A DNA stretch of 64,000 nt from positions 27,043 to 91,042 of IMG/VR virus record IMGVR_UViG_3300029787_005266; one strand, given 5' to 3'. The notes beneath the pieces are model-generated. The model searched no databases. It was given only the letters and a program-made list of their open reading frames with translations, and was not told the DNA's origin. Below are positions 7,741 to 59,083 of this stretch, in pieces. Numbering within the stretch: the first letter of the stretch is position 1; each line of letters starts with the position of its first letter. This DNA comes from a virus. Made by a program: the position numbers and the translations under genes.

Positions 7741-7746
7741 TAAATA
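7741..7746 (+). promoter_or_regulatory. Late promoter box TAAATA
   Basis: 6 nt upstream of ATG 7753; the same motif precedes other structural genes. Confidence 0.6.
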
Positions 7747-7752
7747 CACACG

Positions 7753-9351: not shown

Positions 9352-9354
9352 CAT

Positions 9355-17825: not shown

Positions 17826-18147
17826 AATATATTATCAAGACGAAGAAATTACCACAGTGACAACACAGACTGCAGAAGGTGAATACATTGTGGTTGATTC
17901 AAAAAAATGGCTAGATGTACAAAATAGTCCATCAGCATGGAAAGTAATTGATAAAACACTGGAGAAAAAGATTATAGATCGTACAAATGGAAAAAAGAAA
18001 AAGAAATTTACAGTGAAAGGTCATGACACATTTCCAGGATGGGTAATAAAAAAATATCAACTGTATACAGCCATAGAATATGCTATTGAGGAACCTGAGT
18101 GGTTTGACCCCGAAAAACATGCAGTAGTAGGATATGAAGATGATTGA
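17803..18147 (+). CDS. Hypothetical protein
   Basis: Overlap-coupled ORF within operon. Confidence 0.5.
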   Translation: MNMPLEYRIYYQDEEITTVTTQTAEGEYIVVDSKKWLDVQNSPSAWKVIDKTLEKKIIDRTNGKKKKKFTVKGHDTFPGWVIKKYQLYTAIEYAIEEPEWFDPEKHAVVGYEDD

Positions 18148-26101: not shown

Positions 26102-26109
26102 TTACACAT

Positions 26110-26214
26110 ATGTTTAGATGGATCAAAAAATTGTACAACAATATTCTTCTTGAAATACGGTACAGGAAAAAAATGAAAGAGCTGAAGAAGAAGGATCCTT
26201 TCATTTATCACTAA
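26110..26214 (+). CDS. Small basic 34-aa peptide ending DPFIYH
   Basis: MFRWIKKLYNNILLEIRYRKKMKELKKKDPFIYH fills the intergenic gap; PFIY-ending peptides are known beside carbamoyltransferases. Confidence 0.6.
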   Translation: MFRWIKKLYNNILLEIRYRKKMKELKKKDPFIYH

Positions 26215-26217
26215 TCA

Positions 26218-29731: not shown

Positions 29732-29732
29732 C

Positions 29733-36873: not shown

Positions 36874-36903
36874 ATTATAATTTATCTAAGGAGCGATTGT
36901 CAA
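36874..36903 (-). promoter_or_regulatory. Sigma70-type promoter TTGACA-18-TATAAT
   Basis: TGTCAA at 36898-36903 and ATTATA at 36874-36879; could drive transcription through the SDR-DegT-DesII cassette. Confidence 0.7.
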
Positions 36904-38087: not shown

Positions 38088-39165
38088 TTTCCATACTCGC
38101 TACAACATACTTGCCAAATTGTTTATGAAACTTAGTAAACGATTTTAATTTACTAGGCTTCATTGGCAGTTTATAAGTTGATAAAGCAATCTTGGCACCC
38201 ATCACTGTAAGTTCAGTGTCAAAGTTGTCCATCATAAAGTTTAAGAAGCAGTCTGCTTTCTTATCAAAGTCTTTGTCTTTTTTATCGGCTGACTCTTTAA
38301 GTTCATAACACATACTCACTGCCAGTGAATATTGTCCACTTACTTCAGTTTTCTTCTTCATTTCTTTTACTTTACCACTTAGTATGTCTGTAGGATTAGG
38401 AAGGTCTGACGCAATTTTACGATGAGCCATAAATTTGATTGCCAAACCTTCCCCTACTGCACCTGCTACGAGATCGGTGAGTGATGTCTCAGGCAGGGAT
38501 TCTGTAAGTAGTTGACTCACGAATGCCCATGTTCTAGGAGTAGCAAACGCCTTACTAGAACCTTTAGGATCGAAGTCATACAAATCTTGTTTTGTAAATG
38601 TAATATAACCTACAACATCCGGATGAATGTTATGTAGAGTTGCCCATTCAAACCAATCTTCAAAATCAACTTTCATTTCCAAGTGTACAAATCTATTAGA
38701 CAACGGAGCAGGCATTCTAAATGTTACGCCTCTGTCTGTCTCTCTATTACCAGCCGCTACAATTGACACTCCTTCTGGTAATTTGTAAGCACCAACCTGT
38801 CTGTTTAGTATAAGTTGATAAGCCGCCGCCTGTACTGCCGGAGGTGCCGCATTGATCTCATCTAAGAATAAAATTGCAGTACTCTTAGGATCACTTGGTA
38901 ATTCAATTGGTGGTGCCCACTCCATCAAGTTGGATTTTGAATTGTAAAATGGAATACCTTTAATATCTGTTGGCTCCCACAATGGAAGTCTTATATCAAT
39001 TACTTCACGTTTTTCAATCTCACCAATTTGTTTTACAATGTCGGATTTACCAATACCAGGTGCACCCCATACCATGCATGGTCTCTTAAGATCAATACAA
39101 TGTTTTAAGGCTGTAATAACCTGGGTTGGTCCAATCTGTCTTGTTGTTTCTACTGTTTTGCTCAT
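38080..39165 (-). CDS. MoxR-like AAA+ ATPase
   Basis: GAPGIGKS Walker A, LFLDE Walker B, AAGN, NRF, TPRTW. Confidence 0.9.
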   Translation of the reverse strand: MSKTVETTRQIGPTQVITALKHCIDLKRPCMVWGAPGIGKSDIVKQIGEIEKREVIDIRLPLWEPTDIKGIPFYNSKSNLMEWAPPIELPSDPKSTAILFLDEINAAPPAVQAAAYQLILNRQVGAYKLPEGVSIVAAGNRETDRGVTFRMPAPLSNRFVHLEMKVDFEDWFEWATLHNIHPDVVGYITFTKQDLYDFDPKGSSKAFATPRTWAFVSQLLTESLPETSLTDLVAGAVGEGLAIKFMAHRKIASDLPNPTDILSGKVKEMKKKTEVSGQYSLAVSMCYELKESADKKDKDFDKKADCFLNFMMDNFDTELTVMGAKIALSTYKLPMKPSKLKSFTKFHKQFGKYVVASMENA

Positions 39166-40838: not shown

Positions 40839-41081
40839 TTATTCTAGTTCTAGTGCTACAAGATCATCATATCCGCCAACACGATCGCCATTGATAAAAA
40901 TTTGTGGAACTGTCCTTACAGTTGGATACTCAGCCATGAATGACTCTCTGACAGCAGGGTCTTCTATGCTTTCTTCAGTCCATTCTAATCCTTTTGACTG
41001 CAACAGAGATTTGGCTTTGACACAGTATGGACAAACTGTTTTTGTAATCATTTTAATTTCTTTAATATCTTCTATTTTCAT
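40839..41081 (-). CDS. Glutaredoxin
   Basis: CPYC, RTVPQIFI, GGYDDL. Confidence 0.9.
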   Translation of the reverse strand: MKIEDIKEIKMITKTVCPYCVKAKSLLQSKGLEWTEESIEDPAVRESFMAEYPTVRTVPQIFINGDRVGGYDDLVALELE

Positions 41082-43801: not shown

Positions 43802-43830
43802 ATTATAAGCATTCTTACCAAATTTGTCAA
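43802..43830 (-). promoter_or_regulatory. Perfect sigma70 promoter TTGACA-17-TATAAT
   Basis: TGTCAA at 43825-43830 (overlaps queE stop), ATTATA at 43802-43807. Confidence 0.85.
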
Positions 43831-44723
43831 GTACCAATTGCATTACCAAACAGATATACATGAACTCTGGCCGCTACATTGAAACCACGTTGAAATGCCT
43901 TTTTGGCAACTTCTCCTGCTGTCATACTCTGTTCTTCTTCTCTTGCTCCAACAGGCATCACCCATACAGGCCAATCAACACCGACATCTCGAAATTGCTT
44001 AACCACAGAGTCAAGTTCTTCCCATTCTCTATCTCTGTGTCCAACAACAAATTTAAGTTGTCCAAAGTCTCTTGTTTCTTTATATTCAGCAACTGTTTCT
44101 GGTTTGATTGCTTTTGCGGCTTTTTCTCCTGCTACTGACCAAAGTTTTGGACTCACTGAAAAGAATACTTCTTGTTCCATGTTAGCCAGAAACTCTTTTG
44201 TTGTATCTTTCAACTTTTGTGTACCGTTGGTCTCGAATGTAATCGAACTAGGAGTGTTCTCACGTTCTTGTAAAGATTTCATTATTCCAACTATGGCATC
44301 CTGTGTCATCAACATCAATGGCTCTCCGCCAGTAAAACAAAGATGTTGTGTCTGATCTGACACAGGATGTCTAAACAATCCATCAGGATTGGAGTCGTTG
44401 CGGAGAATATCTACAATTTTGTCTGCTAACACTTCAGGAGTTTCTTGCCCCATCAAGTGTTTAAATTTTTTTGCCCAAGTGTATGAAGAATCACAACCAT
44501 GTTTCCAAACAGGCAAGTCTTCAACCCTGTTTACTGTTTTAGGATCAAAGTCTTCATATGGTAATTCATAAGTGTCTGGATTGGTTGGATCTATTTGTCC
44601 AAACCCGTTGCATTGTAAGTTACACAAGAAAAATCTTATCCATGCAGTTGGCACACCTGTATAGTGTCCTTCGCCTTGGATAGAGTGGAAGATCTCGGAA
44701 TAGTAATACTTCTTGTCAGACAT
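43827..44723 (-). CDS. queE: 7-carboxy-7-deazaguanine synthase (radical SAM)
   Basis: EIFHSIQGEG...G.P..WIR...CNLQC(long insert)GCDS, TGGEP, ETNGT, SVSPKL, R.H; start at ATG 44723. Confidence 0.85.
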   Translation of the reverse strand: MSDKKYYYSEIFHSIQGEGHYTGVPTAWIRFFLCNLQCNGFGQIDPTNPDTYELPYEDFDPKTVNRVEDLPVWKHGCDSSYTWAKKFKHLMGQETPEVLADKIVDILRNDSNPDGLFRHPVSDQTQHLCFTGGEPLMLMTQDAIVGIMKSLQERENTPSSITFETNGTQKLKDTTKEFLANMEQEVFFSVSPKLWSVAGEKAAKAIKPETVAEYKETRDFGQLKFVVGHRDREWEELDSVVKQFRDVGVDWPVWVMPVGAREEEQSMTAGEVAKKAFQRGFNVAARVHVYLFGNAIGT

Positions 44724-44729
44724 AGTGTT

Positions 44730-44758
44730 ATTATACAATAGTATTTAGACAATGTCAA
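44730..44758 (-). promoter_or_regulatory. Perfect sigma70 promoter TTGACA-17-TATAAT with TAAATA nested in the spacer
   Basis: TGTCAA at 44753-44758, ATTATA at 44730-44735, TATTTA at 44742-44747; ATG 6 nt after the -10. Confidence 0.85.
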
Positions 44759-45335
44759 ATGTAAGTTCTCTGCAATCACGATGAGTACCTGCCTTGGGTG
44801 TGTAATTGCCTTTGGCTATATATTCGTCTAATAACTTGCTACAATGTATTGAATGTTCTATAGACATATTGTAATGATACCCTATTATGAAAGTGTCTTG
44901 TTCTTTCCATGTTATATTAGGATCTCTTCCATCCATAGACATACGTTTCATAGTTTGGTATTGTTCTTTATTGTCTAATAGTATACAACCTCCTCGTTTT
45001 GCATCAATAGGTTTGCCATTGCCAAAACTTAAACATTGTACTTGTCCTTGTCTATACATGTCTGGAGATAGTTGCCATGCACTGTCCCAGATATTTGATC
45101 CATGCAATTGATATTCGCCGATCCATTCTTCGCCGGTCAATTCATATATAATGCCCAACTTGTGAAACAACATAGGCACACTCAAATATGTAAAGGCAGT
45201 GCTTGTAATCTTTTTGGGTTTGGCATATCTAAGTGCAATTTCTAATGCATGGGTGCAACAATCAGTTGCTATCACATATGGAGCGCCTGTAAATTTAGAC
45301 AGTTTATCTTCAAATTGTTTTATTTGTTCGAGCAT
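44745..45335 (-). CDS. Short (196 aa) DegT-family PLP-dependent protein
   Basis: FEDKL..FTG, CT.AL, WDSA, LSFGNGKP (PLP Lys), GG.IL, G..YNM; lacks the C-terminal domain. Confidence 0.65.
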   Translation of the reverse strand: MLEQIKQFEDKLSKFTGAPYVIATDCCTHALEIALRYAKPKKITSTAFTYLSVPMLFHKLGIIYELTGEEWIGEYQLHGSNIWDSAWQLSPDMYRQGQVQCLSFGNGKPIDAKRGGCILLDNKEQYQTMKRMSMDGRDPNITWKEQDTFIIGYHYNMSIEHSIHCSKLLDEYIAKGNYTPKAGTHRDCRELTFDIV

Positions 45336-45838
45336 GTGACCTGCATTGTATATCGATGTTCATATCCCATATTGTAGGCGGCATGTAAAGTTGAACCTTT
45401 CCAACTGCATACATCTCCAGCTTTCCATGTAGAAAATACATTATTTTCAATCTGCATCATGTGTCCTATTTTAGCATCTTCTAGAAAAATTATATACCTA
45501 TGAATGTCGGCAATGTCATTTATTTCGTATGCTTTTACATAGTTTTCATACAAGTCAGAATGCAGTGGCAAAATATTTCCAGGAGGTGTTCTGTTGAATG
45601 CAACAGCAACAATGTCGTAATCAAATTGTGCTGTCACTTCATTGACAAATTTTGGCATAGGATTTGGCATACTGTAAACATCATTGTTGATGATATGCTT
45701 GTAAGGATCTTGACTATATTGGATGTAATTGTTAGATCCATATCCACCTAATGTTTTATAATCTAGATTGATAAAGTCTTGTATGTTCCAACATACTTTA
45801 ATATTTGTTATCAAAAGTGTACTCCAATTCATAATCAC
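45320..45838 (-). CDS. Cupin/2OG-Fe(II) oxygenase-like protein (start uncertain)
   Basis: PGNILPLHSD (HxD)...HAAYN...RYTMQV. Confidence 0.6.
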   Translation of the reverse strand: MIMNWSTLLITNIKVCWNIQDFINLDYKTLGGYGSNNYIQYSQDPYKHIINNDVYSMPNPMPKFVNEVTAQFDYDIVAVAFNRTPPGNILPLHSDLYENYVKAYEINDIADIHRYIIFLEDAKIGHMMQIENNVFSTWKAGDVCSWKGSTLHAAYNMGYEHRYTMQVTCSNK

Positions 45839-46778
45839 GTTCTAGTTCAACAGTGCAACAATGTGGTCCGCCACTCAAAGATCTCTGATGTCTCATATGC
45901 ACAGGTATTACAGTGAATCCTTTTGTTTCTAACACATTGATCAAATTAGTTTGTGTGGATTGCACAACCACAGTGTCTTCGTCAAGACTCACACAATTCA
46001 TGCCAGTCCATTGACTCATCATTGCTTCAGGGCCTGCATAATTCATTTCTATAGGTTCTGGACATTCTATTAAATCCCAATTACGCATACCGTACGGTAA
46101 CACATCTTTATTTTTAATTCTACTAGGATTTATTAATGCAGTGCCAGGTTTCAGCAAAGCAATAGTGCTGTCTAAATGAGAGTAGGAATATACATCTGAA
46201 ATAATATGCACATTGAAGTTTGGTCCAAGTAATTTTTGTAATTGTTCTGCTCCTGCATAGTTGCCAGTATTAGAATGTAGATACAAAATATCTCTACCTG
46301 CTCTTAGTACATTAGCGGCATCCCACATTGGCGTAAAATTTACAGTAGCCAATTTGTTTTTGTTCATAATACAACTATCTTCATAATCCTTTTGCGTGAA
46401 TTGTATTGCAGTAAGGTCATTTGTAACTTTGCACATATATTTGTATTCGTCTTTTCTGCAGTTCATAGACATAGGTGATGCTATTATTTTTTTATCAATG
46501 GTTAAAATATTATCACGTGGGCAATACAAATAATGATTAACTTCTGCTGGTTCAGGCCTGATTACCTCTGATCCAAAGTCTTTGTAAATTTTTGCTAAAG
46601 ATTCTAAATCTTCATTTGCTTCATCTATAATTGTTTGTGAATATGCTCCTACAGGAATAGAATCTTGTAATGATCGATCAGCATAATTGATGTGTCTAAC
46701 TCCTAATTCATTAGGCAAATATCTCGCACCTGTGGCAGTGCCAACGATAACCTTTTTAACTTTGCCCCATTCGTTCAT
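45798..46778 (-). CDS. Amidinotransferase (pentein; AGAT/StrB1-like)
   Basis: EWG.VKKVIVG, CPRD, DAAN, SNTGN, HLDST, GGPHCCT (Asp-His-Cys triad). Confidence 0.85.
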   Translation of the reverse strand: MNEWGKVKKVIVGTATGARYLPNELGVRHINYADRSLQDSIPVGAYSQTIIDEANEDLESLAKIYKDFGSEVIRPEPAEVNHYLYCPRDNILTIDKKIIASPMSMNCRKDEYKYMCKVTNDLTAIQFTQKDYEDSCIMNKNKLATVNFTPMWDAANVLRAGRDILYLHSNTGNYAGAEQLQKLLGPNFNVHIISDVYSYSHLDSTIALLKPGTALINPSRIKNKDVLPYGMRNWDLIECPEPIEMNYAGPEAMMSQWTGMNCVSLDEDTVVVQSTQTNLINVLETKGFTVIPVHMRHQRSLSGGPHCCTVELERDYELEYTFDNKY

Positions 46779-46801
46779 TCATTAAATACTTATATAATAC
46801 A

Positions 46802-47869
46802 ATGTTACGCCAATTTAAAAGATGGTCTCCATGGGATCCTGTGAAATCAATTATGCTTGGTTCCTGTTATTCTGAAAAATTTTTTGAGCCAGTAAAAAAC
46901 CAAAAGTTACGAGAATCATTACAAAAAATCTGTATTGAAACAAACGAAGATATAGATCGAATAGAAAGAATTTACCGAAGCATGGATGTAGAAGTGACTC
47001 GAACATTGATTGATGAATCTGAAACAATTGAAGATTATTTGGATGACTCGGGAGCATTGAAACACAAAGCATGGAAACCAAAGTCACTAGTACCGCGCCC
47101 ACCTATTATGCCACGAGACTGTCAAGTTGTGATAGGAGAACATATGTTCGTAAATTTAATAGGTGATCGAAACATGATGAAGTCTTTGTTCAACGTAATG
47201 GATGATCCAATTGAACAGTGTGTGATTCCAGTTGATCACGGCTTCAAAGGATTACATGGAGGGCATCAAACATTAATAGGAAATAGATTATACTTAGACA
47301 CTGATGCAGGCAATTATGATCCGGAGTACAATGAAAAATTCAAACGTATTCTAAATCATTACTATCCCCAAATACAAGTGCATCAGTTAGAAATAGGTGG
47401 CCATAATGATTGTTGTTTTCATCCTTGCAAACCAGGTGTGCTGATTTCCTTAAACGACATACAGAATTACGATGAAACATTTCCAGGCTGGGATGTTCAT
47501 TATATTGAAGATGCTAATCTTGACAAAGTTGAAGGTTGGTTAGATATAAAAGATAAGAATAAGGGCAGATGGTGGGTGCCAGGTGAAGAGAAGAACAATG
47601 AATTTGCAGAATTTGTTGAAACATGGCTAACAGAATGGGTAGGATATGTAGAAGAAACGGTGTTTGATGTTAATGTTCATATGGTAAATCCTGAAACAGT
47701 AATTGTTAATTCACATAACAAAGAACTATTTTCTTATTTCGAAACACACAAAATACAACCAATTATTGCTCCATTCAGGCACAGACACTTTTGGGATGGA
47801 GGAGTGCATTGTATGACTTTAGATTTATATCGTGAAGGTGAGTGTGAAGATTATTTTTCCCAAGGATAA
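46802..47869 (+). CDS. Second amidinotransferase-like pentein enzyme, divergently transcribed
   Basis: WDP.K...LG, MPRD, HNDCCF..CKPG, FDVN, FWDGGVHCMTLDL.R. Confidence 0.8.
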   Translation: MLRQFKRWSPWDPVKSIMLGSCYSEKFFEPVKNQKLRESLQKICIETNEDIDRIERIYRSMDVEVTRTLIDESETIEDYLDDSGALKHKAWKPKSLVPRPPIMPRDCQVVIGEHMFVNLIGDRNMMKSLFNVMDDPIEQCVIPVDHGFKGLHGGHQTLIGNRLYLDTDAGNYDPEYNEKFKRILNHYYPQIQVHQLEIGGHNDCCFHPCKPGVLISLNDIQNYDETFPGWDVHYIEDANLDKVEGWLDIKDKNKGRWWVPGEEKNNEFAEFVETWLTEWVGYVEETVFDVNVHMVNPETVIVNSHNKELFSYFETHKIQPIIAPFRHRHFWDGGVHCMTLDLYREGECEDYFSQG

Positions 47870-48279
47870 ACAATCCAGGTAGGCTCTTTATCCTTATCAA
47901 TTTTTTGAAACCAATAATCAACACTAAATTCTGAAGGTATGTTGTCATGTATGACAGCATAGTCAATATCTAAATTTCTTTGATCAAACATATCCTGTAA
48001 GAATCTAAATGTTTCTCCAGTATCATTTATATCATCTACACACAAATATCTCCCATGTGGAATATCATGAATCATTGTAGGTTTATTCACATGGTCACGT
48101 AATGAACAATTGACTGAATACATTGGAATATCTAATTCGTGAGATATAATTACAGCAGGAATAAGTCCACCTCTTTGTATGCCTATGACTGCTTTATATC
48201 CCATGTCTCTGGCATTGTCCGCAATTAATCTACTTGCTTCTTGTATTTGTGTCCATGTGATGAATATTTTGTCTGGCAT
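47851..48279 (-). CDS. Type I purine phosphoribosyltransferase (Gpt-like)
   Basis: GIQRGGLIPA, CVDDINDTGET, WIVYPWE. Confidence 0.9.
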   Translation of the reverse strand: MPDKIFITWTQIQEASRLIADNARDMGYKAVIGIQRGGLIPAVIISHELDIPMYSVNCSLRDHVNKPTMIHDIPHGRYLCVDDINDTGETFRFLQDMFDQRNLDIDYAVIHDNIPSEFSVDYWFQKIDKDKEPTWIVYPWEK

Positions 48280-48977
48280 TATTTCGGAGCGAATTGTTGT
48301 TGCAGTTTTATATTGTCCATAAATTCTTTCTTTGTTGCTGGATCAGTTGCAAACGCACCTTCTAACACAGTGGTCTGTGTCAAACTTGAATGTGCTTCAA
48401 TTCCTCTGTGTTCAACACAACCGTGAGTTGCTTGAACATAAACACCAACATTCTCGGAGTTGGTTGCTTTCATTATTTCTCTACATATATCCATTGCAAG
48501 TTCTTCTTGCAGTGTTCCACGTTTTGCACACCATTGTGCTATCCTTGTATATTTGCTTAAACCTATTAATGTATCTCCAGCAATAATACCAATGTATGCT
48601 ACACCCTTCACTGGTTGATGATGATGTGAACACATACTTACTATCTCTGATCTCACAGTCAACAAACCTTTGTATGCAGTTGTTGAATCATTTGGAAATG
48701 CAGTGGCAGGCGGCATTGGATCATACCTACCGCTCATTAATTCGTTGATATACATCTTTGATAATCTTTTTGCAGTCCCGTTACTATTTGGATCATTTTC
48801 CACGTCAATGACTAATCCTTCTAACACCTTTTGAAACTGATGTGTAAGTTCATCTATCAGCATTTCTTTTTCGCCCTCTTGTATGAACTCACTTATATTA
48901 TCACCGGCCCAAAATCTTTTGCCTGCTTCTTGTAATCGTTGTCTTATTCTTTTAGATATTAAGAAAACCTCTGTCAT
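48279..48977 (-). CDS. folE: GTP cyclohydrolase I
   Basis: SMCSHH, GLSKYTRI, LQEEL, HGC...RG. Confidence 0.95.
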   Translation of the reverse strand: MTEVFLISKRIRQRLQEAGKRFWAGDNISEFIQEGEKEMLIDELTHQFQKVLEGLVIDVENDPNSNGTAKRLSKMYINELMSGRYDPMPPATAFPNDSTTAYKGLLTVRSEIVSMCSHHHQPVKGVAYIGIIAGDTLIGLSKYTRIAQWCAKRGTLQEELAMDICREIMKATNSENVGVYVQATHGCVEHRGIEAHSSLTQTTVLEGAFATDPATKKEFMDNIKLQQQFAPK

Positions 48978-50026
48978 GTTTTTAGTATACTTTCGTTGAT
49001 TGTTTTGTACAAGTTATTTCCATGGAAAAAATTATTCTTAAGAGATTGTTTTTGATGTTGCATCTTTATTCTATATGAATCATAATTGTCCATGTAATCA
49101 CAGATTGTATTTAGAATTTTATCTTTGTGTACCAAATAATCTTTCATACTGCTGGTCCATTCTGAAGGATATTTGAAATCATCGAACATTTCAGTATAAC
49201 TTAATCTATCAGGAACCATTGGAATAACATCTAGCAGTAAACCTTCAAATCCAGATATTCCAAGTGTTTCTTGCAAGTTTGCAGAAAATAATAATTTAGA
49301 TTCGGCCAACAAGTTGTGATAATCATCTTTTGATCTTGGTTCTTCTTGTGCAATCACAAATTCATATTGTGGCAATGCATCTTTTAAATCATAAAAAATG
49401 TCTGGTTGTTTTTCAGGAGCAATTCTGTGTGGAAACAGTATGATATCTTTTTTAGGCATATCTTTAAATGCTTCTAATTCTTGATCCATGTATTCCATCG
49501 GCCAACCAGTTCTTGTGATCTTGTCTTTATCCAAGTTTAATGTATCGGCAAACATATCGATATGAAAGTCTGTAGCAAAAAAATTGTCATCATAACAATC
49601 ATACATCGAACGTTCAGCATTTCTCACCCATGGTTTGTCACCTATTAGTCTACCCAGAAAGTCTGCTGGGTCATATGAACCTGCATGCCACATACCGCCT
49701 ATCTTAATTTTTATATTCAACAGTTCTGCCATGTATCGCAGTTGAATCACCGTAGGATTCCATGCATCGGTGTACAAAAAATAATCTCCATTTTTCACTT
49801 CTCCGTCACAAAACATTTGACCAATTTTTTCTAATTGTTTGGATTTGTATACATTGGTGCCTCCAAAATTTAAGAATGCTCCTGGAGTAGTTGCTTGTGG
49901 AGTATCGCCACCTGATATAGTCATCACAGATTGATTCGTGTGTCTACCTAATTGCTTGGGCAAATATTTTTTCCACTGTGCTGTGTATCTTGTTTCAACT
50001 GCTTCTATGTCTACTATAAAAATCAT
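48974..50026 (-). CDS. GT-B glycosyltransferase (phage DNA glucosyltransferase/GT4-like)
   Basis: FPHRIAPEKQP, SANLQETLGIS..EG, P.VPDRLSY.EM. Confidence 0.65.
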   Translation of the reverse strand: MIFIVDIEAVETRYTAQWKKYLPKQLGRHTNQSVMTISGGDTPQATTPGAFLNFGGTNVYKSKQLEKIGQMFCDGEVKNGDYFLYTDAWNPTVIQLRYMAELLNIKIKIGGMWHAGSYDPADFLGRLIGDKPWVRNAERSMYDCYDDNFFATDFHIDMFADTLNLDKDKITRTGWPMEYMDQELEAFKDMPKKDIILFPHRIAPEKQPDIFYDLKDALPQYEFVIAQEEPRSKDDYHNLLAESKLLFSANLQETLGISGFEGLLLDVIPMVPDRLSYTEMFDDFKYPSEWTSSMKDYLVHKDKILNTICDYMDNYDSYRIKMQHQKQSLKNNFFHGNNLYKTINESILKT

Positions 50027-51075
50027 TTTACTGTATATTGTTCATAAACTCTATTTTGTACATTATGTGTCTTTACAAAGGTAGCACATTTTGGCATATC
50101 TTTCAACCTTCTTGCTCCAATATATGTTGCAGACGATCGTACACCGCCAAGTATATCTTCAACTGTTTCTTTGACTGATCCTCTGTATGGTAACGTAATC
50201 AATCTTCCTTCATTACCACGATAACCATCTTTTCTTTTTCCATGCACTTCTCTTGCTCTGTCCGAACTCATGCCATAAAATTCAACTTGTCCATCAACTA
50301 TTTTTTGTTCTGATTCATCATGGCCTGCCAGCATACCGCCTATCATAACCATGTGAGCACCGCCACCTAATGCTTTTGCAATATCTCCTGGAAACACACA
50401 TCCACCATCTGCCATTATGTGTCCATCAACACCATTGGCCGCATCTGAACATTCACATATTGCTGAAAACTGTGGCACACCCACACCAGTCATTGTTCTG
50501 GTTGTGCATACTGAACCAGGACCAATTCCTATTTTTACAATATCAGCACCATTCAAGATAAGTTCTTCAGTCATTTCCGGTGACACAACATTGCCAGCAA
50601 TTATAATTTTATCTGGGTATTCTTCACGGATACGTTTTACAAAGTCAATAAATTTTTGGTGATAGGCATTTGCAACATCAATTGTAATAAATTTAACATC
50701 TGGAAAACTGGCCAACACCTCAGTCATAGTTTTGTAATCAGGTGCATCTGGATCCCACATAACATTTGTACCGGTACATACCGAAACAGATTGCAATCTA
50801 AGTCCAGTACCTGCCGCTTGTTTCCATTGATCAACTGTGGTAGACTTTGTGATCACAGTCATCATTTTGTATTCTTGTAAGACCTTTGCCATTGAAAAAG
50901 TGCCAACACCATCCATATTTGATGCAAATATAGGACAAAATTCTAACTGTTTGCCAGAGTTTATAAAATTAAATGTTCTAGTCATTTTTACATCTGCACG
51001 TGATGTCAGTGTTGATCTTTTAGGTTGCAATAACACATCATCAAAATTTAACTTTACTTCTGATTTAATTCTCAT
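50023..51075 (-). CDS. guaC: GMP reductase
   Basis: DVLLQPKRSTL.SR, NMDGVGTF, IDVAN, KIGIGPGSVCTTR, FYGMSS, GGVRS..TY.GA..L. Confidence 0.9.
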   Translation of the reverse strand: MRIKSEVKLNFDDVLLQPKRSTLTSRADVKMTRTFNFINSGKQLEFCPIFASNMDGVGTFSMAKVLQEYKMMTVITKSTTVDQWKQAAGTGLRLQSVSVCTGTNVMWDPDAPDYKTMTEVLASFPDVKFITIDVANAYHQKFIDFVKRIREEYPDKIIIAGNVVSPEMTEELILNGADIVKIGIGPGSVCTTRTMTGVGVPQFSAICECSDAANGVDGHIMADGGCVFPGDIAKALGGGAHMVMIGGMLAGHDESEQKIVDGQVEFYGMSSDRAREVHGKRKDGYRGNEGRLITLPYRGSVKETVEDILGGVRSSATYIGARRLKDMPKCATFVKTHNVQNRVYEQYTVK

Positions 51076-51374
51076 ACATATAAACTTTCTGTTTGATCAA
51101 TGCATTTAAATCTTAAATTCAAATAACTTTGTATTTCTGTTTTGTCGCATGAAAACACAACACAATCAAGTCCTGCATCTTCAAAATAAAAGTCTTTGCC
51201 ATAGGTCCAACCTTTAAGTCCTAAGTCATTGCTCACTATACACCCAACATCAAAGTCTTTGTATCCACTGTTTAATGCACCACCTTCGACAGCATAATAA
51301 GAATTTCTGTCACTAGTATCTGTACTTGATACTATCACCTTTGTCTTGTATCGATATGGCCCAGGATTACTCAA
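51072..51374 (-). CDS. Hypothetical protein
   Basis: ATGA-coupled ORF in operon. Confidence 0.5.
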   Translation of the reverse strand: MSNPGPYRYKTKVIVSSTDTSDRNSYYAVEGGALNSGYKDFDVGCIVSNDLGLKGWTYGKDFYFEDAGLDCVVFSCDKTEIQSYLNLRFKCIDQTESLYV

Positions 51375-51754
51375 TTTACAGTCTCCGCAAATGGAAACTC
51401 CATATCAGCACCATTTTCTCCATCTTCACTTACAGAAATTTTAATATATCTGCCTGGATATCTTGCTTTGATTTGTTCTGCTAAATCTTCGCCCATCATT
51501 TCACAACTTTTATAATCAAGTTCTATTATGCCATCGCCATATAAATTTTCAAGCCATCTTTTGAACTGTATAAACTCTATGTCTCTGTCATCATGAAATA
51601 CTTCGATCCATACTTTAAAATGAAATATGTGCCTGTGTGGATATCCCAAAAAGGACACGTCATATTCATCACCTGTTGCTAATTTAGGATCTGTAAGTGC
51701 CGCAGGATATTTGTGTATGCCTTCTTTACTGAATGTTACCCATATTGTGTTCAT
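51371..51754 (-). CDS. queD: QueD-like 6-carboxytetrahydropterin synthase (T-fold)
   Basis: EGIH, HRHIFHF, DIEF, SCE, VSEDGENG; clustered with folE/queE/dpdA. Confidence 0.65.
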   Translation of the reverse strand: MNTIWVTFSKEGIHKYPAALTDPKLATGDEYDVSFLGYPHRHIFHFKVWIEVFHDDRDIEFIQFKRWLENLYGDGIIELDYKSCEMMGEDLAEQIKARYPGRYIKISVSEDGENGADMEFPFAETVN

Positions 51755-52269
51755 AGTATTTCATCATCTCCATATTCATTCCAATCAGTAAAATGTTCCT
51801 CTTTTATCAGGTCACGTACCGACCAACACCATACTCCTGGATTTGTTGCTTTAAAGTCTTTGTCATCAATCTTAAAAATCACATTGCCTTTCATTTCCAT
51901 AATATTTTCTACAGGCACTGCATATACTATTGAAAATTTTGGATTGGATAAAAAATTTGTTATTTCTTTTAAGTCTGCGTTGCCAGGAACATCAAGTGTG
52001 ACATGATAATTCTGCAATAGTTTTTTTATTGTTGGCATTAACATTTCTTTATCAAGTGCATCAAAATATTTGAAACAATGATTGGCTCCAAGATAAATGT
52101 GTGTACAATTATTTTCTTCTGCATACTTTTCAATATCTTCATCTTCTTGATGTCTAACAACAAACAATGTCTTCATTCCTTGTGTAGGCGTTTTTTCTAC
52201 TTCTGTGCCTATAAAAAATTCAGCAGTGTCTGTTACACCTGTTGAGTAATCACGTTTCATCATTATCAA
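51751..52269 (-). CDS. Hypothetical protein in deazaguanine locus (start may be 52260/52263)
   Basis: F.G.EVE.TP..G.KTLFV, HIYLGANH, KIDD.DF.ATNPGVW. Confidence 0.6.
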   Translation of the reverse strand: MIMMKRDYSTGVTDTAEFFIGTEVEKTPTQGMKTLFVVRHQEDEDIEKYAEENNCTHIYLGANHCFKYFDALDKEMLMPTIKKLLQNYHVTLDVPGNADLKEITNFLSNPKFSIVYAVPVENIMEMKGNVIFKIDDKDFKATNPGVWCWSVRDLIKEEHFTDWNEYGDDEIL

Positions 52270-52498
52270 ACTTTTCGTCTATCCATTTGTTTAAACTTTC
52301 ATCAGAAGTGTCTGAGCCTCTCATTTCTTCAAGTTCATCTAAAAGTTGTTTCATTTGTAATTTTTTCTTTTTAGCATCTAGTAATATTTCTTTGTGATCC
52401 CATGATCTGTTAAGTTCTCTCTGTGCTTCAAGTTGTTTGACAGTTTTCTTTAATTTTTTCAATTCTTGTTTGAAATTTAAAATTTTTGCTGATGCCAT
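52250..52498 (-). CDS. Small coiled-coil hypothetical protein
   Basis: Start moved to ATG 52498 (TAATG coupling). Confidence 0.5.
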   Translation of the reverse strand: MASAKILNFKQELKKLKKTVKQLEAQRELNRSWDHKEILLDAKKKKLQMKQLLDELEEMRGSDTSDESLNKWIDEKFDNDET

Positions 52499-52731
52499 TA
52501 TAATCCTTTCACTTTTTTCCATGCTGAATGTAAAACATAAAACCATAATCCATTAATAGAAGGTTCAACTAATGCAACAACACCCGCCTCCCATATACTT
52601 GCTCCAGTCATTGCACTGACAACTATCATTGCTATACAAATATGGCCTGTAGTGTAGATTAATGCTAGAGCCAACGAACTTTTTATTAATTCTTTAAATG
52701 CTCCTTGAATTCCTTGTGTAAATTCTGTCAT
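52498..52731 (-). CDS. Small membrane protein (DUF2061-like)
   Basis: IYT.GH..IAM....TGA.....VALVEP..N..WFY.LH..W. Confidence 0.6.
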   Translation of the reverse strand: MTEFTQGIQGAFKELIKSSLALALIYTTGHICIAMIVVSAMTGASIWEAGVVALVEPSINGLWFYVLHSAWKKVKGL

Positions 52732-54191
52732 TATACATCCTCGAATAAATTGTTAAATTGTGTTGTTGCGTTCACAGTTTTTTTGCCTGTTGCTCCTCTT
52801 GTTCCTATGATACTCATCCAATACTTTGAATACTCTTCTATTATAGCATCTGCTATACTTCTGTCATCCGTTGCAAAAATGGCTTCTACAATATCACGGA
52901 ACATTATTCGATCAAATGATTCATTGACCAACATGTCTGGTATAATGCCTTGATCGTACTGTCTGTTTGCTTCTTGTACTGCGTTGATATGCATCCAAAC
53001 ATTATGGCCCATCATGACTGCATATGAAAAAGAATCCCAAGATGTTTTGCCTTCTTTACCAATCTTGTTCAAGTCTCCTGGTCCATATATGCATATATCC
53101 TTTGCTTGTAACCCATCTGTAATAGGTGAATCTAAGAAACTTGAATGCTTGCCTTCTCTTATAAATGCCTGTGAAAATGGTGTTGTATCTGTGGATAACT
53201 TTTTGTCATCTATACTGGGAACCATTCTATACACCCATTTGGTTCTGTCTTCTGTTTCTAGTTCACAATAAATTTGTCCGTTTGCAGTGGCAAGGAAAGG
53301 AGATGCACAATCAAATGTTACCATAAAGTTTTCATTATGGTATTTGCGTACTGCTCTTTGTATGTCTGTTAGTAGTGTTGCCCATTCTAATTTTGACGTA
53401 CCAAGAAAATGCATAACATCATGTACACCCTTTTCCAGTAATCCATCAAAACGTAATGCAACCAATCTTTTCAACACTAGATGCACATCACACATATTTT
53501 GCCCACCCATTGACCAACCATTTAAATGATTGCCTGGATGTTGCTTAGGATCAGAATAATGTTTCATATGTTCATACCAAGCATCAGCATCAGCATGATT
53601 TTCACCTTGTAAAACATTCAGAAACTTACAAGCACCTGTTCTGTGCTTCATGAAGTACTCATTGTTTATATCTGTGGCCTTAAGTGCTTCTTCATAACTA
53701 CCTACACCTGATGCCTTTGCTCCTTCCGGAGAACGTGCTACCCAGGCAGGGATATCTAAGATCATTCCATAATCCATCATCTCGTCCATCCAGTTAAGCA
53801 CAAGTTCACGTTTCTTCTGTGCTTTAGGACATGAAGGATCTTTCCAATCACCTTCCCATTTACCTTTACCTATCTGGAATCCACCTGAGTCGCCTAACAC
53901 CCATGATGTTGATCTGTCACGTTTACGGAACATATCTTCTTTGGGAGAATCTTTTGAAAGATCCAAATCAGCATGACCTGCCGAATACAAACACCACTTG
54001 TATTGGAATTGGCCTTCATTGGGATTCAGATAATTCAAACTTTCAATACCGTGTTTGAAGTTTTTGGGGATACGTGAAGGATCGACGTAATCGGTATGCA
54101 TCTGTTTCCCAATGAAAGTAGCGTAAAACCCACTGGTAGCAGGGAGGAAATGAGCGAAATCCTTTTGCTCTTCAGTTAGGTTAATTCTCAT
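52731..54191 (-). CDS. dpdA: DpdA-like DNA 7-deazaguanine transglycosylase (TGT fold)
   Basis: GDSGGFQ, MILDIP, NVLQG, GWSMGG, HFLG, TFDCASP, HN; start at ATG 54191; clustered with folE/queD/queE. Confidence 0.8.
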   Translation of the reverse strand: MRINLTEEQKDFAHFLPATSGFYATFIGKQMHTDYVDPSRIPKNFKHGIESLNYLNPNEGQFQYKWCLYSAGHADLDLSKDSPKEDMFRKRDRSTSWVLGDSGGFQIGKGKWEGDWKDPSCPKAQKKRELVLNWMDEMMDYGMILDIPAWVARSPEGAKASGVGSYEEALKATDINNEYFMKHRTGACKFLNVLQGENHADADAWYEHMKHYSDPKQHPGNHLNGWSMGGQNMCDVHLVLKRLVALRFDGLLEKGVHDVMHFLGTSKLEWATLLTDIQRAVRKYHNENFMVTFDCASPFLATANGQIYCELETEDRTKWVYRMVPSIDDKKLSTDTTPFSQAFIREGKHSSFLDSPITDGLQAKDICIYGPGDLNKIGKEGKTSWDSFSYAVMMGHNVWMHINAVQEANRQYDQGIIPDMLVNESFDRIMFRDIVEAIFATDDRSIADAIIEEYSKYWMSIIGTRGATGKKTVNATTQFNNLFEDV

Positions 54192-54985: not shown

Positions 54986-55813
54986 TTATTCACCAATCTT
55001 TTCCATTTTGGTTGGGCCTTTTTTGATGCTCTCTAGTGATCCAGGTTTTTGCATGGATAAAAATGAGTAATGGTCTTCTATGTGATAAAACTCACAATTC
55101 ATATCAAACTTTTTCGCCATCCTTTTTATTATAGTTTCTGTACAGTATGTGCGTTTTTTTGACACTACCGAGGTCCATTCTTGTTCTTGGTCGGCATCAC
55201 TGAAATGTATAAAAGCAGAACCACCTGGTTTTAACATCTGATTAAAAGATGATATCAAATTTCTCATCTGTTCTAAAGACAAATAAGGAAAATAATCAAG
55301 ACACACAATGTTTCCAATTTGTCCATATGGAACGTGCATGTCTGGAATGTCACCATGTATTTCTAATGGTTTATGTCTGTACTGTTGCGGGTTGGATTTT
55401 TCTCTTAGATTGTCACGCAGGTGCTGATCTATGTCATTCATTTTAAATTTATTCGAGAGCACATAAACCAAATGTGATTTTACACCTTGTTCTGTATAAA
55501 GCAGTGTAGTTGGACAAAGCCACGCCATTGGATATCGCCAATCACTTTGTCGCACTAACCATGTTTTAATAAATTGCTCTACGTTTTGATTGTGAGTGAT
55601 TTTTAGTGTTTCAAAAAACTTTTCATCGAATCCCATGGCAAGACTTTTACCCATATCATCATTAATCATTTGATATGCTTCGTCTGAACTTTGAATGTAA
55701 TTTTCAAGTGATTCAAGATCTTGATGCAACTCACTTTTGAACATGTCAAAGTTTTCATTACATGCTTCTTTAAGAATCTTTACTGCTTCCTTTATTTGAT
55801 ATCTTGATGCCAT
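54986..55813 (-). CDS. Class I SAM-methyltransferase-like protein (degenerate motif I)
   Basis: IVCLDYFPYL...MLKPGG.AFI.F; no clear GxGxG. Confidence 0.5.
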   Translation of the reverse strand: MASRYQIKEAVKILKEACNENFDMFKSELHQDLESLENYIQSSDEAYQMINDDMGKSLAMGFDEKFFETLKITHNQNVEQFIKTWLVRQSDWRYPMAWLCPTTLLYTEQGVKSHLVYVLSNKFKMNDIDQHLRDNLREKSNPQQYRHKPLEIHGDIPDMHVPYGQIGNIVCLDYFPYLSLEQMRNLISSFNQMLKPGGSAFIHFSDADQEQEWTSVVSKKRTYCTETIIKRMAKKFDMNCEFYHIEDHYSFLSMQKPGSLESIKKGPTKMEKIGE

Positions 55814-58446: not shown

Positions 58447-58667
58447 GTAATATAGTTTAACACAATCCCGCCTGTGCCTACAAGGAATAATACAGCATTG
58501 GTTACAATCAAAGACGGTTCACGCCACATACAAGAAACAGCCAGCCATATGAGACCTCCTAGTGCTAGTATGATAGCTCCTAGGGGGTAGATGCCAAATG
58601 CATTAACGCCTGTACCCACAATTAAAATTGCGGTGGCTAGCCATTTCAGTAATGTGTCTAGTTTCAT
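58443..58667 (-). CDS. Small membrane protein
   Basis: Three hydrophobic segments. Confidence 0.6.
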   Translation of the reverse strand: MKLDTLLKWLATAILIVGTGVNAFGIYPLGAIILALGGLIWLAVSCMWREPSLIVTNAVLFLVGTGGIVLNYIT

Positions 58668-59083
58668 ATAGAATCAAGTAACTCTGCTAATTTCTTCTTT
58701 GATTTTCCAACTGCTTTTTGTGTTGCAATTTGTTCTTTGTTAGAGATATCATTGCCGACTACAACCAACCCGATCATGCCCATGGACTTATGTGGTGTAC
58801 AAACATAATAGTATATGCCTGGAGTTTCAAATGTGTGCGAAAACTCTTTGTTCATTTTGCTTTTCTTTGGCAGTGTTGCTCCTTCTGGGCCGGCAACAAA
58901 TTCAACATTGTGTCCTTTGGAGGTTGGTAACCAAGTTATTGTATGCTCAACATCGATGTTTACAACGTCTTCTGAGTAAACCATTTTGGCTCCGTCATCG
59001 CGTTTGTTTAACATGTCGATAGTGTGTTCTGCATATGCAGGTGTTACAAATAAAAAAACTAATAGTGTAATAATGTATTTCAT
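58664..59083 (-). CDS. Pseudoazurin/plastocyanin-type blue copper protein with signal peptide
   Basis: Signal peptide ending AYA; GHNV and CTPH...GM type-1 Cu ligands; MLNK...MVY N-terminus and C-terminal helices of pseudoazurin. Confidence 0.9.
   Translation of the reverse strand: MKYIITLLVFLFVTPAYAEHTIDMLNKRDDGAKMVYSEDVVNIDVEHTITWLPTSKGHNVEFVAGPEGATLPKKSKMNKEFSHTFETPGIYYYVCTPHKSMGMIGLVVVGNDISNKEQIATQKAVGKSKKKLAELLDSI

What the first reader, a model, noticed from the sequence alone, without database searches (positions are those of the whole stretch)
43827..54191. 7-deazaguanine DNA-modification locus without queC/queF but with GT, PRTase, GMP reductase and amidinotransferases
Seen: folE, queD-like, queE and dpdA-like genes, with no QueC, QueF or ArcS motifs in the window. 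Established: FolE/QueD/QueE make CDG, QueC is needed for preQ0, and DpdA inserts deazaguanines into DNA. Inference: either queC is elsewhere or host-supplied, or the base is CDG-derived. The interleaved tailoring genes suggest a hypermodified (glycosylated or guanidinylated) deazaguanine that has not been described.
Basis: partly seen in the sequence, partly recalled or inferred. Interest (0 to 1): 0.85.

Follow-up and report, generated by a model that had tools for sequence, protein, structure and literature searches.

The report
Phage deazaguanine DNA module with glycosyltransferase
A fragment of an uncultured marine giant phage carries genes to replace guanine in its DNA with a 7-deazaguanine by the known route that needs no QueC; a sugar-transferring enzyme always accompanies these genes, so the DNA may carry a sugar-bearing purine that no paper I found describes, whereas the GMP reductase and amidinotransferases are extras found only in this sub-lineage.

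Summary
FolE, a QueE-like radical SAM enzyme, a purine PRTase, a GMP reductase, a GT-B glycosyltransferase and two StrB1-like amidinotransferases are all real.

Two labels need correcting.
- The "queD-like" gene is DpdL, the proposed CDG decarboxylase. It has LGYPHRHIF, matching the published LxxxHRHxF signature.
- The "dpdA-like" gene (52731-54191) is invisible to the Pfam TGT model. Its model matches TGT and DpdA structures (Z 15-17, against 11.4 or less for generic TIM barrels).

QueC, QueF and ArcS are absent here and in relatives that are 92-97% complete. The known DpdL route explains that absence.

Across 57 related viral contigs the core is PolB, p245, DpdA-like, p172, DpdL, GT, FolE, (PRTase), QueE. 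The DpdA-like + GT + DpdL set recurs in PA5oct, ACP17, X1 and ZZ01; in BCSR5 only the GT and a QueE annotation were confirmed.

GMP reductase, the amidinotransferases and the cupin lie in the locus only in the four closest contigs. Elsewhere they lie apart from it, and the amidinotransferase then sits in a radical-SAM/glycan island.

My best reading is post-replicative insertion of 7-deazaguanine with probable glycosylation. A guanidinylated base is possible but unsupported.

This scan has already reported the GT-linked module on many other genomes.

The parts
43827..44738 (-). QueE-like radical SAM enzyme (CDG synthase candidate); core gene
   Evidence: phrog_2076 at 4.7e-56. NCBIfam QueE models give 1e-9 to 1e-12 but fall below their cut-offs. 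35-37% identical to the ZZ01 and PA5oct QueE. QGEG is present in 46 of 46 homologues.
44745..45335 (-). Half-size DegT-like protein (196 aa) that keeps the SFGNGK lysine motif; accessory gene
   Evidence: PF01041 at 2.8e-14, N-terminal part only. Two-piece alignment to AHBA synthase 1b9h. 37.5% identical to the 195-aa S-SCSM2R protein. Homologues lie next to the GT in L023 and L063.
45320..45838 (-). Cupin / 2OG-oxygenase-like protein (172 aa); accessory gene
   Evidence: Weak match to PF05118, 0.0012. 37% identical to the S-SCSM2R '2OG-Fe(II) oxygenase family protein'.
45798..46778 (-). Amidinotransferase AT326 (StrB1/AGAT type); accessory gene
   Evidence: PDB 1bwd at 1.3e-57 and AGAT at 1e-34. 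GGPHCCT and HLD motifs present. Found in the locus only in the 4 closest contigs.
46802..47869 (+). Divergent amidinotransferase paralogue AT355, the only + strand gene in this block; accessory gene
   Evidence: HsvA (5wpi) at 5e-07 and StrB1 at 4e-04, over the C-terminal GGVHCMT region. phrog_25854.
47851..48279 (-). Purine phosphoribosyltransferase (XGPRT-like)
   Evidence: PF00156 at 1.9e-09. NF006613 at 2e-18, below its cut-off. 1vdm at 1.5e-14. Homologues occur in phiST, immuto 2-6A, CP220, ZZ01 and PA5oct. Present in 27 of 57 loci.
48279..48977 (-). GTP cyclohydrolase I (FolE); core gene
   Evidence: PF01227 at 129 bits against a 27-bit cut-off. Present in 49 of 57 loci.
48974..50026 (-). 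GT-B (GT4-like) glycosyltransferase; core gene tied to the DpdA-like gene and DpdL
   Evidence: Model pLDDT 87. Foldseek matches to BshA, MshA and glycogen synthase at about 1e-9. ACP17 gp124 matches with TM 0.89. QE-x7-E present in 55 of 55 homologues. 46% identical to PA5oct gp317.
50023..51075 (-). GMP reductase (GuaC type); accessory gene in this position
   Evidence: NF003470 at 451.6 bits, above its 397-bit cut-off. In the locus in only 4 of 57 contigs. Located elsewhere in G002 and G006.
51072..51374 (-). Unknown 100-aa protein, specific to this sub-lineage
   Evidence: No family hit. Found only in the 4 closest contigs.
51371..51754 (-). DpdL (QueD paralogue, proposed CDG decarboxylase); core gene
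   Evidence: Carries LGYPHRHIF. LxxxHRHxF is present in 54 of 54 homologues and CxxxHGH in 0 of 54. 34% identical to phiST CGPG_00067, 55% to ACP17 gp125 and 60% to PA5oct gp318.
51751..52269 (-). Conserved unknown p172, a frequent module member
   Evidence: Present in 31 of 57 loci. 28% identical to ACP17 gp122, E 1e-12. No PDB or Atlas match.
52731..54191 (-). Long, divergent DpdA/TGT-fold enzyme (486 aa from M27; longest ORF to 54269); core gene
   Evidence: Model pLDDT 87. The Foldseek top 50 are all TGT. VIA-align gives ArcTGT Z 17.2, TGT 16.7 and DpdA 7ui4 15.1, against 11.4 or less for generic TIM barrels. D127, S128, G129, G130 and D320 are invariant. hhalign gives 95.5% to the TGT-annotated protein of phage X1.

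Best explanation
This is a QueC-independent 7-deazaguanine DNA-modification module of the 'long DpdA + GT4 + DpdL' type, sitting in the replication region of a PA5oct-related marine jumbo phage.

Proposed pathway:
1. FolE converts GTP to H2NTP (family assignment shown).
2. A QueD encoded outside this contig, or supplied by the host, makes CPH4 (inferred).
3. The QueE-like enzyme makes CDG (family assignment shown, activity inferred).
4. DpdL removes the carboxyl group to give 7-deazaguanine, as proposed for phiST (inferred).
5. The TGT-fold protein exchanges guanine in DNA for this base after replication (fold and motifs shown, activity inferred).
6. The GT4 enzyme, which travels with these genes, adds a sugar to the base, either before or after insertion (inferred from conserved linkage only).

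Supporting genes: the XGPRT-like PRTase most likely salvages the guanine released by the exchange, and the GMP reductase rebalances the purine pool.

Accessory cassette: the mini-DegT/cupin/twin-amidinotransferase cassette converts a hydroxyl to a guanidino group on a sugar or cyclitol. It is borrowed from the phage's radical-SAM/glycan system and is not a fixed part of the module.
For: - Gene identities.
- TGT-superfamily fold of the 486/512-aa protein, with invariant DSGG and FD(C/A/S)ASP aspartates.
- Homology chain from the window protein through PA5oct gp316 and ACP17 gp123 to the TGT-annotated X1 protein.
- DpdL signature in 54 of 54 homologues.
- Synteny across 57 IMG/VR loci.
- Synteny in PA5oct, ACP17, X1 and ZZ01, with a GT homologue beside an annotated QueE in BCSR5.
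- Four-base overlaps chain p172, DpdL, p100, GMPR, GT, FolE and PRTase into one operon.
- No QueC, QueF or ArcS in relatives that are 92-97% complete.
- PA5oct DNA resists several G-containing restriction sites and is attacked by nucleases specific for hypermodified DNA. Its chemistry is unknown: PMC12191111.
- phiST has DpdA3 + DpdL but no detectable GT homologue, and its DNA contains dDG: PMC10516641.
- ACP17 dpdL + dpdA alone gave no dDG in E. coli.
- Precedent for a Glyco_trans_4 enzyme glycosylating a 7-deazapurine base (huimycin).
- The accessory genes lie outside the locus in relatives.
Against: - No chemistry is available for any member of this module type.
- DpdL's decarboxylase activity has never been shown. 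7-Deazaguanine itself offers no hydroxyl, so the acceptor atom for a sugar is unclear (N2, C7, or the carboxyl group if CDG is the inserted base).
- The DpdA-like protein is recognised only by fold and short motifs. Mapping D320 onto the DpdA nucleophile D256 was not checked residue by residue.
- QueD is missing from the 91-kb contig, which is only 24% of the genome.
- Mini-DegT and cupin genes do sit next to the GT in a second sub-lineage. The cassette may therefore be more closely tied to the module than I assume.
- The PRTase and GMP reductase are translationally coupled to the module here. That also fits a nucleotide-level route.
Confidence: 0.45

Rival explanations
1. The DNA base is plain 2'-deoxy-7-deazaguanosine (dDG), as in phiST. 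The GT4 enzyme, and in this clade the amidinotransferase cassette, act on something else, such as a virion protein, a glycan or a small molecule. They merely share the operon.
For: - phiST reaches dDG with DpdA3 + DpdL, and no GT homologue was detected there.
- The window also has a large GT/radical-SAM glycan island and a sugar-nucleotide cassette at 15979-35964 (earlier notes).
- In G001, G006, S-SCSM2R and CP220 the amidinotransferase lies in such islands.
- 7-Deazaguanine has no obvious glycosyl acceptor.
Against: - The GT lies close to the DpdA-like gene and DpdL across very different phage backbones: T4-like ACP17, cyanophage ZZ01, jumbo PA5oct and X1. In BCSR5 only the GT and a QueE annotation were confirmed.
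- The GT is highly conserved (mean column identity 65%).
- ACP17 dpdA + dpdL alone gave no dDG in E. coli.
- PA5oct is targeted by nucleases described as specific for hypermodified DNA.
Confidence: 0.25
2. A pre-replicative, tubercidin/toyocamycin-like nucleotide route. The PRTase converts CDG or 7-deazaguanine to a ribonucleotide. The GMP-reductase homologue acts as TubD/ToyE or drains competing GMP. The analogue then reaches DNA as a dNTP through the polymerase.
For: - FolE + QueE + PRTase + GMP reductase without QueC is the tubercidin gene logic.
- Here the PRTase and GMP reductase are translationally coupled to FolE, GT and DpdL.
- PRTase homologues occur in the phages with fully substituted genomes: phiST, CP220 and immuto 2-6A.
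- The ADG nucleoside was seen in CP220-infected cells.
Against: - A TGT-fold base-exchange enzyme with intact catalytic motifs is a core gene.
- The PRTase is present within the fetched 10-kb flanks in only 27 of 57 loci, and the GMP reductase in 4 of 57.
- tblastn found no PRTase homologue in ACP17, X1 or BCSR5.
- The GMP reductase scores as an ordinary GuaC, above the equivalog cut-off and 51% identical to Salmonella GuaC.
- No UbiD, Nudix/HAD, dNMP kinase or MazG gene was seen in the locus.
Confidence: 0.1
3. The module acts on RNA or makes a free 7-deazapurine glycoside. This would be a huimycin-like metabolite or a tRNA modification used for host takeover, not a DNA modification.
For: - The structural matches to tRNA-acting TGTs (Z 16.7-17.2) are slightly better than the match to DpdA (Z 15.1).
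- GT + deazapurine is the huimycin/dapiramicin logic.
Against: - The module always sits in the replication block between PolB and RNase H.
- PA5oct virion DNA is modified at G.
- Cui et al. report a DpdA-family gene in every phage known to carry a 7-deazaguanine in its DNA.
Confidence: 0.07

Closest known systems
DpdL/DpdA3 dDG system of Cellulophaga phage phiST (FolE, QueD, QueE, DpdL, DpdA3; Cui, Hutinet et al., NAR 2023, PMC10516641)
   Same: QueC-less pathway. It has a DpdL with the LxxxHRHxF motif, FolE, QueE, a TGT-superfamily enzyme and an XGPRT-like PRTase in the genome.
   Different: - phiST's DpdA3 is 259 aa and is not detectably homologous at HMM level. hhalign gives only 59% over 83 columns.
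- phiST has no detectable GT4 homologue and no p172 homologue in the fetched loci.
- phiST has a MazG-like gene that is absent here.
- phiST's product, dDG, has been measured. The product here is unknown.
Pseudomonas jumbo phage PA5oct (Wroclawvirus) gp314-gp325 region
   Same: Same phage group and same gene order: PolB, phrog_12062 protein, DpdA-like gp316 (37%), GT gp317 (46%), DpdL gp318 (60%), PRTase gp321, QueE gp322, RNase H. Its DNA shows G-site restriction resistance (PMC12191111).
   Different: - In PA5oct's locus, no ORF matched the window's GMP reductase, amidinotransferases, cupin, mini-DegT or FolE.
- The paper that studied PA5oct named only QueE and PTPS, not the DpdA-like, GT or DpdL genes.
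Bacterial DpdA (Salmonella Montevideo, PDB 7UI4) and tRNA-guanine transglycosylases
   Same: TIM-barrel TGT fold (Z 15.1-17.2). A DSGGFQ-type acid/base aspartate and a conserved aspartate in an FDxxSP strand end.
   Different: - About 13-15% identity.
- Missed by the Pfam TGT model, PADLOC and a profile search of PDB sequences.
- No invariant cysteines that could form a TGT-type zinc site.
- No DpdB partner was seen.
Tubercidin / toyocamycin biosynthesis (CDG or preQ0 + PRTase + GMP-reductase homologue)
   Same: FolE, QueE, a PRTase and a GMP-reductase homologue are clustered. The tubercidin branch also lacks QueC.
   Different: - Those clusters lack any TGT/DpdA. They have a UbiD decarboxylase and a phosphatase, and they yield free nucleosides.
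- Here a TGT-fold enzyme is core and the GMP reductase is optional.
Streptidine branch of streptomycin biosynthesis (aminotransferase + StrB1 amidinotransferase)
   Same: AT326 matches StrB1 at 1.3e-57. It is paired with a DegT-family protein and an oxidising enzyme. This is the same logic for converting a hydroxyl to a guanidino group (pathway from my own knowledge).
   Different: The aminotransferase is a half-size 196-aa form. The substrate is unknown, and the setting is a phage.

Membership tests
DpdA / TGT superfamily | TGT-type TIM-barrel fold | tested here: met
   The Foldseek top 50 are all TGT, E about 1e-6. VIA-align wide search gives ArcTGT 17.2, QTRT2 17.1, TGT 16.7, DpdA 7ui4 15.1 and Cap10 13.9. 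The next, unrelated TIM barrels score 11.4 or less.
DpdA / TGT superfamily | General acid/base aspartate in a DSGG(F) motif, with the stacking Phe four residues later (DpdA D95/F99) | tested here: met
   LGDSGGFQ is present. D127, S128 and G130 are invariant in both a 25-sequence and a 57-sequence alignment, and G129 is invariant in the first and nearly so in the second. D127 follows predicted strand 123-127.
DpdA / TGT superfamily | Nucleophile aspartate (DpdA D256 / TGT D280) and base-recognition aspartate (D130 / D156) | tested here: inconclusive
   D320 (FDCASP) is invariant, and D172 and D166 are nearly invariant. Each lies at the end of a strand. hhalign pairs ISFDC with ISYDS of the X1 TGT-like protein. 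No residue-level superposition on 7UI4 was possible.
DpdA / TGT superfamily | Match to the Pfam TGT model (PF01702) or the PADLOC Dpd models | tested here: not met
   No hit. Only 1 of 57 family members matches, at E 0.007. The control shows the model also misses the published DpdA3 of phiST and CP220, so this says little.
DpdA / TGT superfamily | Guanine / 7-deazaguanine exchange in DNA | not testable with these tools
   Needs a biochemical assay or nucleoside MS.
DpdL (proposed CDG decarboxylase) | QueD paralogue with LxxxHRHxF in place of CxxxHGH | tested here: met
   LGYPHRHIF is present. 54 of 54 homologues carry the DpdL motif and none carries CxxxHGH.
DpdL (proposed CDG decarboxylase) | Homology to phiST CGPG_00067, and a context with FolE, QueE and a DpdA but no QueC | tested here: met
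   34% identity, E 2.6e-13. Context shown.
DpdL (proposed CDG decarboxylase) | Decarboxylation of CDG | not testable with these tools
   The authors who proposed the activity have not shown it either.
GT-B / GT4 retaining glycosyltransferases | Two-Rossmann GT-B fold | tested here: met
   Matches BshA, MshA, glycogen synthase and PimA with TMq 0.6-0.67, E about 1e-9.
GT-B / GT4 retaining glycosyltransferases | E-x7-E motif in the C-terminal domain | tested here: met
   QETLGISxYE is present in 55 of 55 homologues, and E253 and E261 are invariant.
GT-B / GT4 retaining glycosyltransferases | Match to the Pfam Glycos_transf_1 / Glyco_trans_4 models | tested here: not met
   No Pfam, NCBIfam or PHROG hit.
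QueE (CDG synthase) | QueE family models and the QGEG / radical-SAM cysteine motif | tested here: inconclusive
   phrog_2076 at 4.7e-56 with full-length coverage. The NCBIfam QueE equivalogs score only 25-45 bits, far below their cut-offs. QGEG is present in 46 of 46 homologues, but the cysteine motif is an unusual C-x3-C-x(about 42)-C.
GMP reductase (GuaC) | Score above the NCBIfam equivalog cut-off | tested here: met
   NF003470 at 451.6 bits against a 397-bit cut-off. TubD/ToyE-type specificity cannot be excluded from sequence.
Amidinotransferase (AGAT/StrB1) | Full-length homology and the catalytic Cys/His motifs | tested here: met
   AT326 matches 1bwd at 1.3e-57 over residues 2-319. It has GGPHCCT and HLD. 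AT355 has GGVHCMT.
Tubercidin-type nucleotide pathway | PRTase + GMP-reductase homologue + decarboxylase + phosphatase, and no TGT/DpdA | tested here: not met
   The PRTase and GMP reductase are present. However, a TGT-fold enzyme is core, and no UbiD, Nudix or HAD gene was found in the locus.

The most novel reading that the evidence does not exclude
In this sub-lineage the GT4 enzyme puts a sugar on the 7-deazaguanine. The operon-coupled mini-DegT, cupin and twin StrB1-like amidinotransferases then convert sugar hydroxyls to guanidino groups. The result would be a cationic guanidino-sugar purine in DNA, a kind of DNA hypermodification with no described precedent.
Probability: 0.12. Interest if true: 0.9.

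Novelty: new variant of a known kind. Interest (0 to 1): 0.66.

Why it matters
The 7-deazaguanine DNA modifications described in the papers I searched carry small substituents at C7; none carries a sugar, and I know of no glycosylated purine reported in natural DNA.

A glycosyltransferase locked to a distinct, long DpdA lineage and to DpdL predicts such a base. The GT family has at least 8000 clusters at 90% identity in metagenomes. The DpdA-like family has 1359 clusters at 50% identity.

The prediction can be tested directly in cultured phages: PA5oct, ACP17, X1, BCSR5 and ZZ01.

It would also explain two existing observations. PA5oct behaves as hypermodified, and ACP17 dpdA + dpdL alone failed to give dDG.

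The DpdA-like family is invisible to the HMMs now used to find such systems, so surveys undercount them. This window adds a cassette able to make guanidino sugars, which could extend the chemistry further.

Tried and rejected
- Pfam TGT searches of the contig and of five large relatives found nothing. I set this aside as uninformative because the same model misses the published DpdA3 of phiST and CP220.
- The one QueC-like hit in relative G001 (25.5 bits, N-terminal PP-loop only) reads as an NAD-synthetase-like protein, not QueC.
- A profile of the DpdA-like family found no TGT or DpdA among PDB sequences, only chance Bcl-xL hits. PADLOC found nothing either.
- The family profile also does not reach phiST DpdA3 or the ZZ01 447-aa protein.
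- p172 gave no PDB or ESM Atlas lead.
- megablast of the locus against GenBank phages found nothing.
- A single-sequence scan for amidinotransferase loci recovered only the same three close contigs.
- I first considered that the PRTase + GMP reductase meant a DpdA-less nucleotide route. I demoted this once the TGT fold was shown.
- I considered a C-amidination of 7-deazaguanine by the amidinotransferase to give archaeosine or ADG. I dropped it because nothing supports it and the cassette lies outside the module in relatives.
- One literature search was wasted because 'QueE' matched 'queen'.
- The supplementary tables of the 2023 paper are not held. I could therefore not check whether PA5oct-type proteins were already listed there as DpdA.

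Full report
**Setting**

The window is 64 kb of a 91-kb IMG/VR viral contig that CheckV rates as 24% complete. Gene order and protein similarity place it with Pseudomonas jumbo phage PA5oct. Both share the order PolB, phrog_12062 protein, a roughly 500-aa unknown, GT, a small T-fold protein, PRTase, QueE, RNase H. A plastocyanin gene at 58664-59083 hints at a cyanobacterial host.

**Checking the observation**

- FolE: PF01227, 1.4e-37.
- QueE-like radical SAM enzyme: phrog_2076, 4.7e-56. The NCBIfam QueE models match but fall below their cut-offs.
- Purine PRTase: closest to xanthine-guanine PRTases.
- GMP reductase: above the NCBIfam equivalog cut-off.
- AT326: full-length homology to StrB1, 1.3e-57.
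- AT355: a divergent paralogue on the opposite strand.
- A half-size DegT-like protein and a cupin-like protein complete the set.

QueC, QueF and ArcS are absent from the contig. They are also absent from relatives that are 97% and 92% complete. The single weak QueC hit is an NAD-synthetase-like PP-loop protein.

**Two corrections**

First, the 'queD-like' gene (51371-51754) is not QueD. It carries LGYPHRHIF. That is the LxxxHRHxF signature by which Cui, Hutinet et al. defined DpdL, their proposed CDG decarboxylase (PMC10516641). All 54 homologues in related contigs have this motif and none has CxxxHGH. A real QueD is missing from the contig but present elsewhere in 4 of 5 large relatives. In G001 it lies inside the module.

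Second, the 'dpdA-like' gene (52731-54191; M27 is the likely start, since it avoids overlap with the upstream gene) has no Pfam, NCBIfam, PHROG or PADLOC hit.
- An alignment of 25 homologues shows invariant LGDSGGFQ and FD(C/A/S)ASP motifs.
- Its AlphaFold model has pLDDT 87. It matches only TGTs in the Foldseek top 50.
- In an independent all-against-all search it scores Z 17.2 for ArcTGT, 17.1 for QTRT2, 16.7 for TGT, 15.1 for DpdA 7UI4 and 13.9 for Cap10. Generic TIM barrels score 11.4 or less.
- A profile of 57 diverse members aligns with 95.5% probability to the TGT-annotated protein of Xanthomonas phage X1. That protein is 38% identical to ACP17 gp123.
- The failure of the Pfam TGT model is uninformative, because it also misses the published DpdA3 proteins.
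- The family is large: 1359 clusters at 50% identity.

**What is core and what is accessory**

I searched IMG/VR with the GT and retrieved 57 loci. BLAST of every window gene against them gave these counts:

| Gene | Loci with a homologue (of 57) |
|---|---|
| DpdL | 54 |
| DpdA-like | 52 |
| FolE | 49 |
| p245 | 48 |
| QueE | 46 |
| PolB | 45 |
| p172 | 31 |
| PRTase | 27 |
| Mini-DegT | 8 |
| Cupin | 6 |
| GMP reductase, p100, AT326, AT355 | 4 each (the contigs with 90-95% GT identity) |

The set of long DpdA, GT4 and DpdL recurs outside this phage group. It is found in T4-like Acidovorax phage ACP17 (gp122-126, where gp122 is a p172 homologue), Xanthomonas X1 and Synechococcus ZZ01. Burkholderia BCSR5 has a GT homologue next to a 446-aa gene and an annotated QueE, but its small neighbouring gene showed no DpdL motif in my check.

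The GT model is a GT-B/GT4 fold with an invariant E-x7-E motif. tblastn found no GT homologue in phiST, CP220 or the Flavobacterium phages that use the short DpdA3. phiST DNA contains plain dDG.

**The accessory genes**

- In relatives G002 and G006 a GMP reductase exists but lies roughly 60-90 kb from the module.
- In G001 and G006 the amidinotransferase sits beside homologues of the window's radical-SAM/glycan-island genes, with a cupin as well in G001. These lie far from the module.
- The best match to the three-gene cassette (37%, 37% and 42% identity) is in Synechococcus phage S-SCSM2R. There it lies inside a GT/2OG-oxygenase/radical-SAM cluster, and that phage has no QueE homologue.
- CP220 likewise keeps its amidinotransferase among radical-SAM and GT genes.

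The cassette is therefore a mobile unit for sugar or cyclitol tailoring. Its logic (oxidise, transaminate, amidinate) parallels streptidine synthesis; that parallel rests on my own knowledge.

It is not fully independent of the module, however. In a second sub-lineage, mini-DegT copies and a cupin lie directly between the GT and FolE. In the window the cassette is packed tightly against QueE.

**Mechanism**

The best-supported reading runs as follows.
1. GTP is converted to CDG by FolE, a QueD encoded elsewhere and the QueE-like enzyme.
2. DpdL decarboxylates CDG to 7-deazaguanine.
3. The TGT-fold enzyme exchanges guanine in DNA for this base after replication.
4. The conserved GT glycosylates it.

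Only the family and fold assignments are shown. Every activity is inferred.

Experimental context comes from PA5oct. [quoted passage not shown] In addition, ACP17 dpdL + dpdA failed to give dDG in E. coli.

A glycosyltransferase acting on a 7-deazapurine base has a precedent in huimycin biosynthesis.

The PRTase is most simply a salvage enzyme for the guanine released by the exchange, and the GMP reductase a purine-pool balancer. The same pair also fits a tubercidin-like nucleotide route. I rank that route lower because the TGT-fold enzyme is core and the pair is optional.

**Novelty**

QueC-less deazaguanine systems with DpdL are published. PA5oct's modified G and ACP17's dpdA/dpdL have been noted. 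The fixed GT partner and the long DpdA lineage that HMMs miss are described in no paper I could search.

Earlier follow-ups in this scan reached the same conclusion on many other genomes. What is new in this window is only the interleaved GMP reductase and the guanidino-forming cassette, and I find these to be clade-specific.

Noticed in passing
window 58664-59083 (-): Plastocyanin/azurin-family protein (PF00127, 2.3e-15) just beyond PolB. This is a typical cyanophage auxiliary gene, so the host may be a cyanobacterium.
   Followed up: no
window 44745-45335 (-); L063:11066-12246; L005:6281-6868: A conserved family of half-size (about 196 aa) DegT-like proteins. They keep the SF-x-x-GK lysine motif but lack about half of the fold. 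Two tandem copies occur in L063 and L019, and one copy occurs in cyanophage S-SCSM2R, where it is annotated as AHBA synthase.
   Followed up: partly
window 43827-44738 (-): The QueE-like enzyme has an unusual cysteine spacing, C-x3-C followed by an insertion of about 42 residues before the third Cys (…CNLQC…HGCD). This is conserved in 46 of 46 homologues.
   Followed up: partly
window 46778-47869: AT355 is the only + strand gene in a roughly 31-kb block of - strand genes. It starts 23 bp from the divergent AT326, and its 3' end overlaps the 3' end of the PRTase gene by 19 bp. This suggests a recent inversion or insertion.
   Followed up: no
window 32716-35964 (-): Radical SAM (401 aa) + full-length DegT aminotransferase (PF01041, 1.9e-96) + NAD-dependent epimerase/dehydratase. 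This sugar-nucleotide cassette could supply a donor sugar. An earlier follow-up in this scan treated it separately.
   Followed up: partly
window 36900-39165 (-): A pair made of a DUF2201 metallopeptidase/VWA-like protein and a MoxR-type AAA ATPase. It is conserved in relative G006 (39-53% identity).
   Followed up: no
window 54986-55813 (-): A weak SAM-methyltransferase-like protein (275 aa; Methyltransf_25, E 0.0014) between PolB and the phrog_12062 protein. BLAST found homologues in 8 related loci (4 close; the other 4 at only 20-27% identity).
   Followed up: no
L001 (PA5oct) 4596-9822: The PA5oct DNA polymerase is annotated in two pieces separated by a Hef-like homing endonuclease. The window's PolB is one intact 877-aa ORF.
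   Followed up: no
L073 5332-5865 (phage X1); L074 5152-5799 (BCSR5): X1 and BCSR5 carry a PAPS-reductase-family (PP-loop) gene between FolE and the GT. It might stand in for QueC in those lineages. It is absent from the window.
   Followed up: no
window 40839-41081 (-): Glutaredoxin gene (PF00462, 2.6e-14) in the replication block.
   Followed up: no
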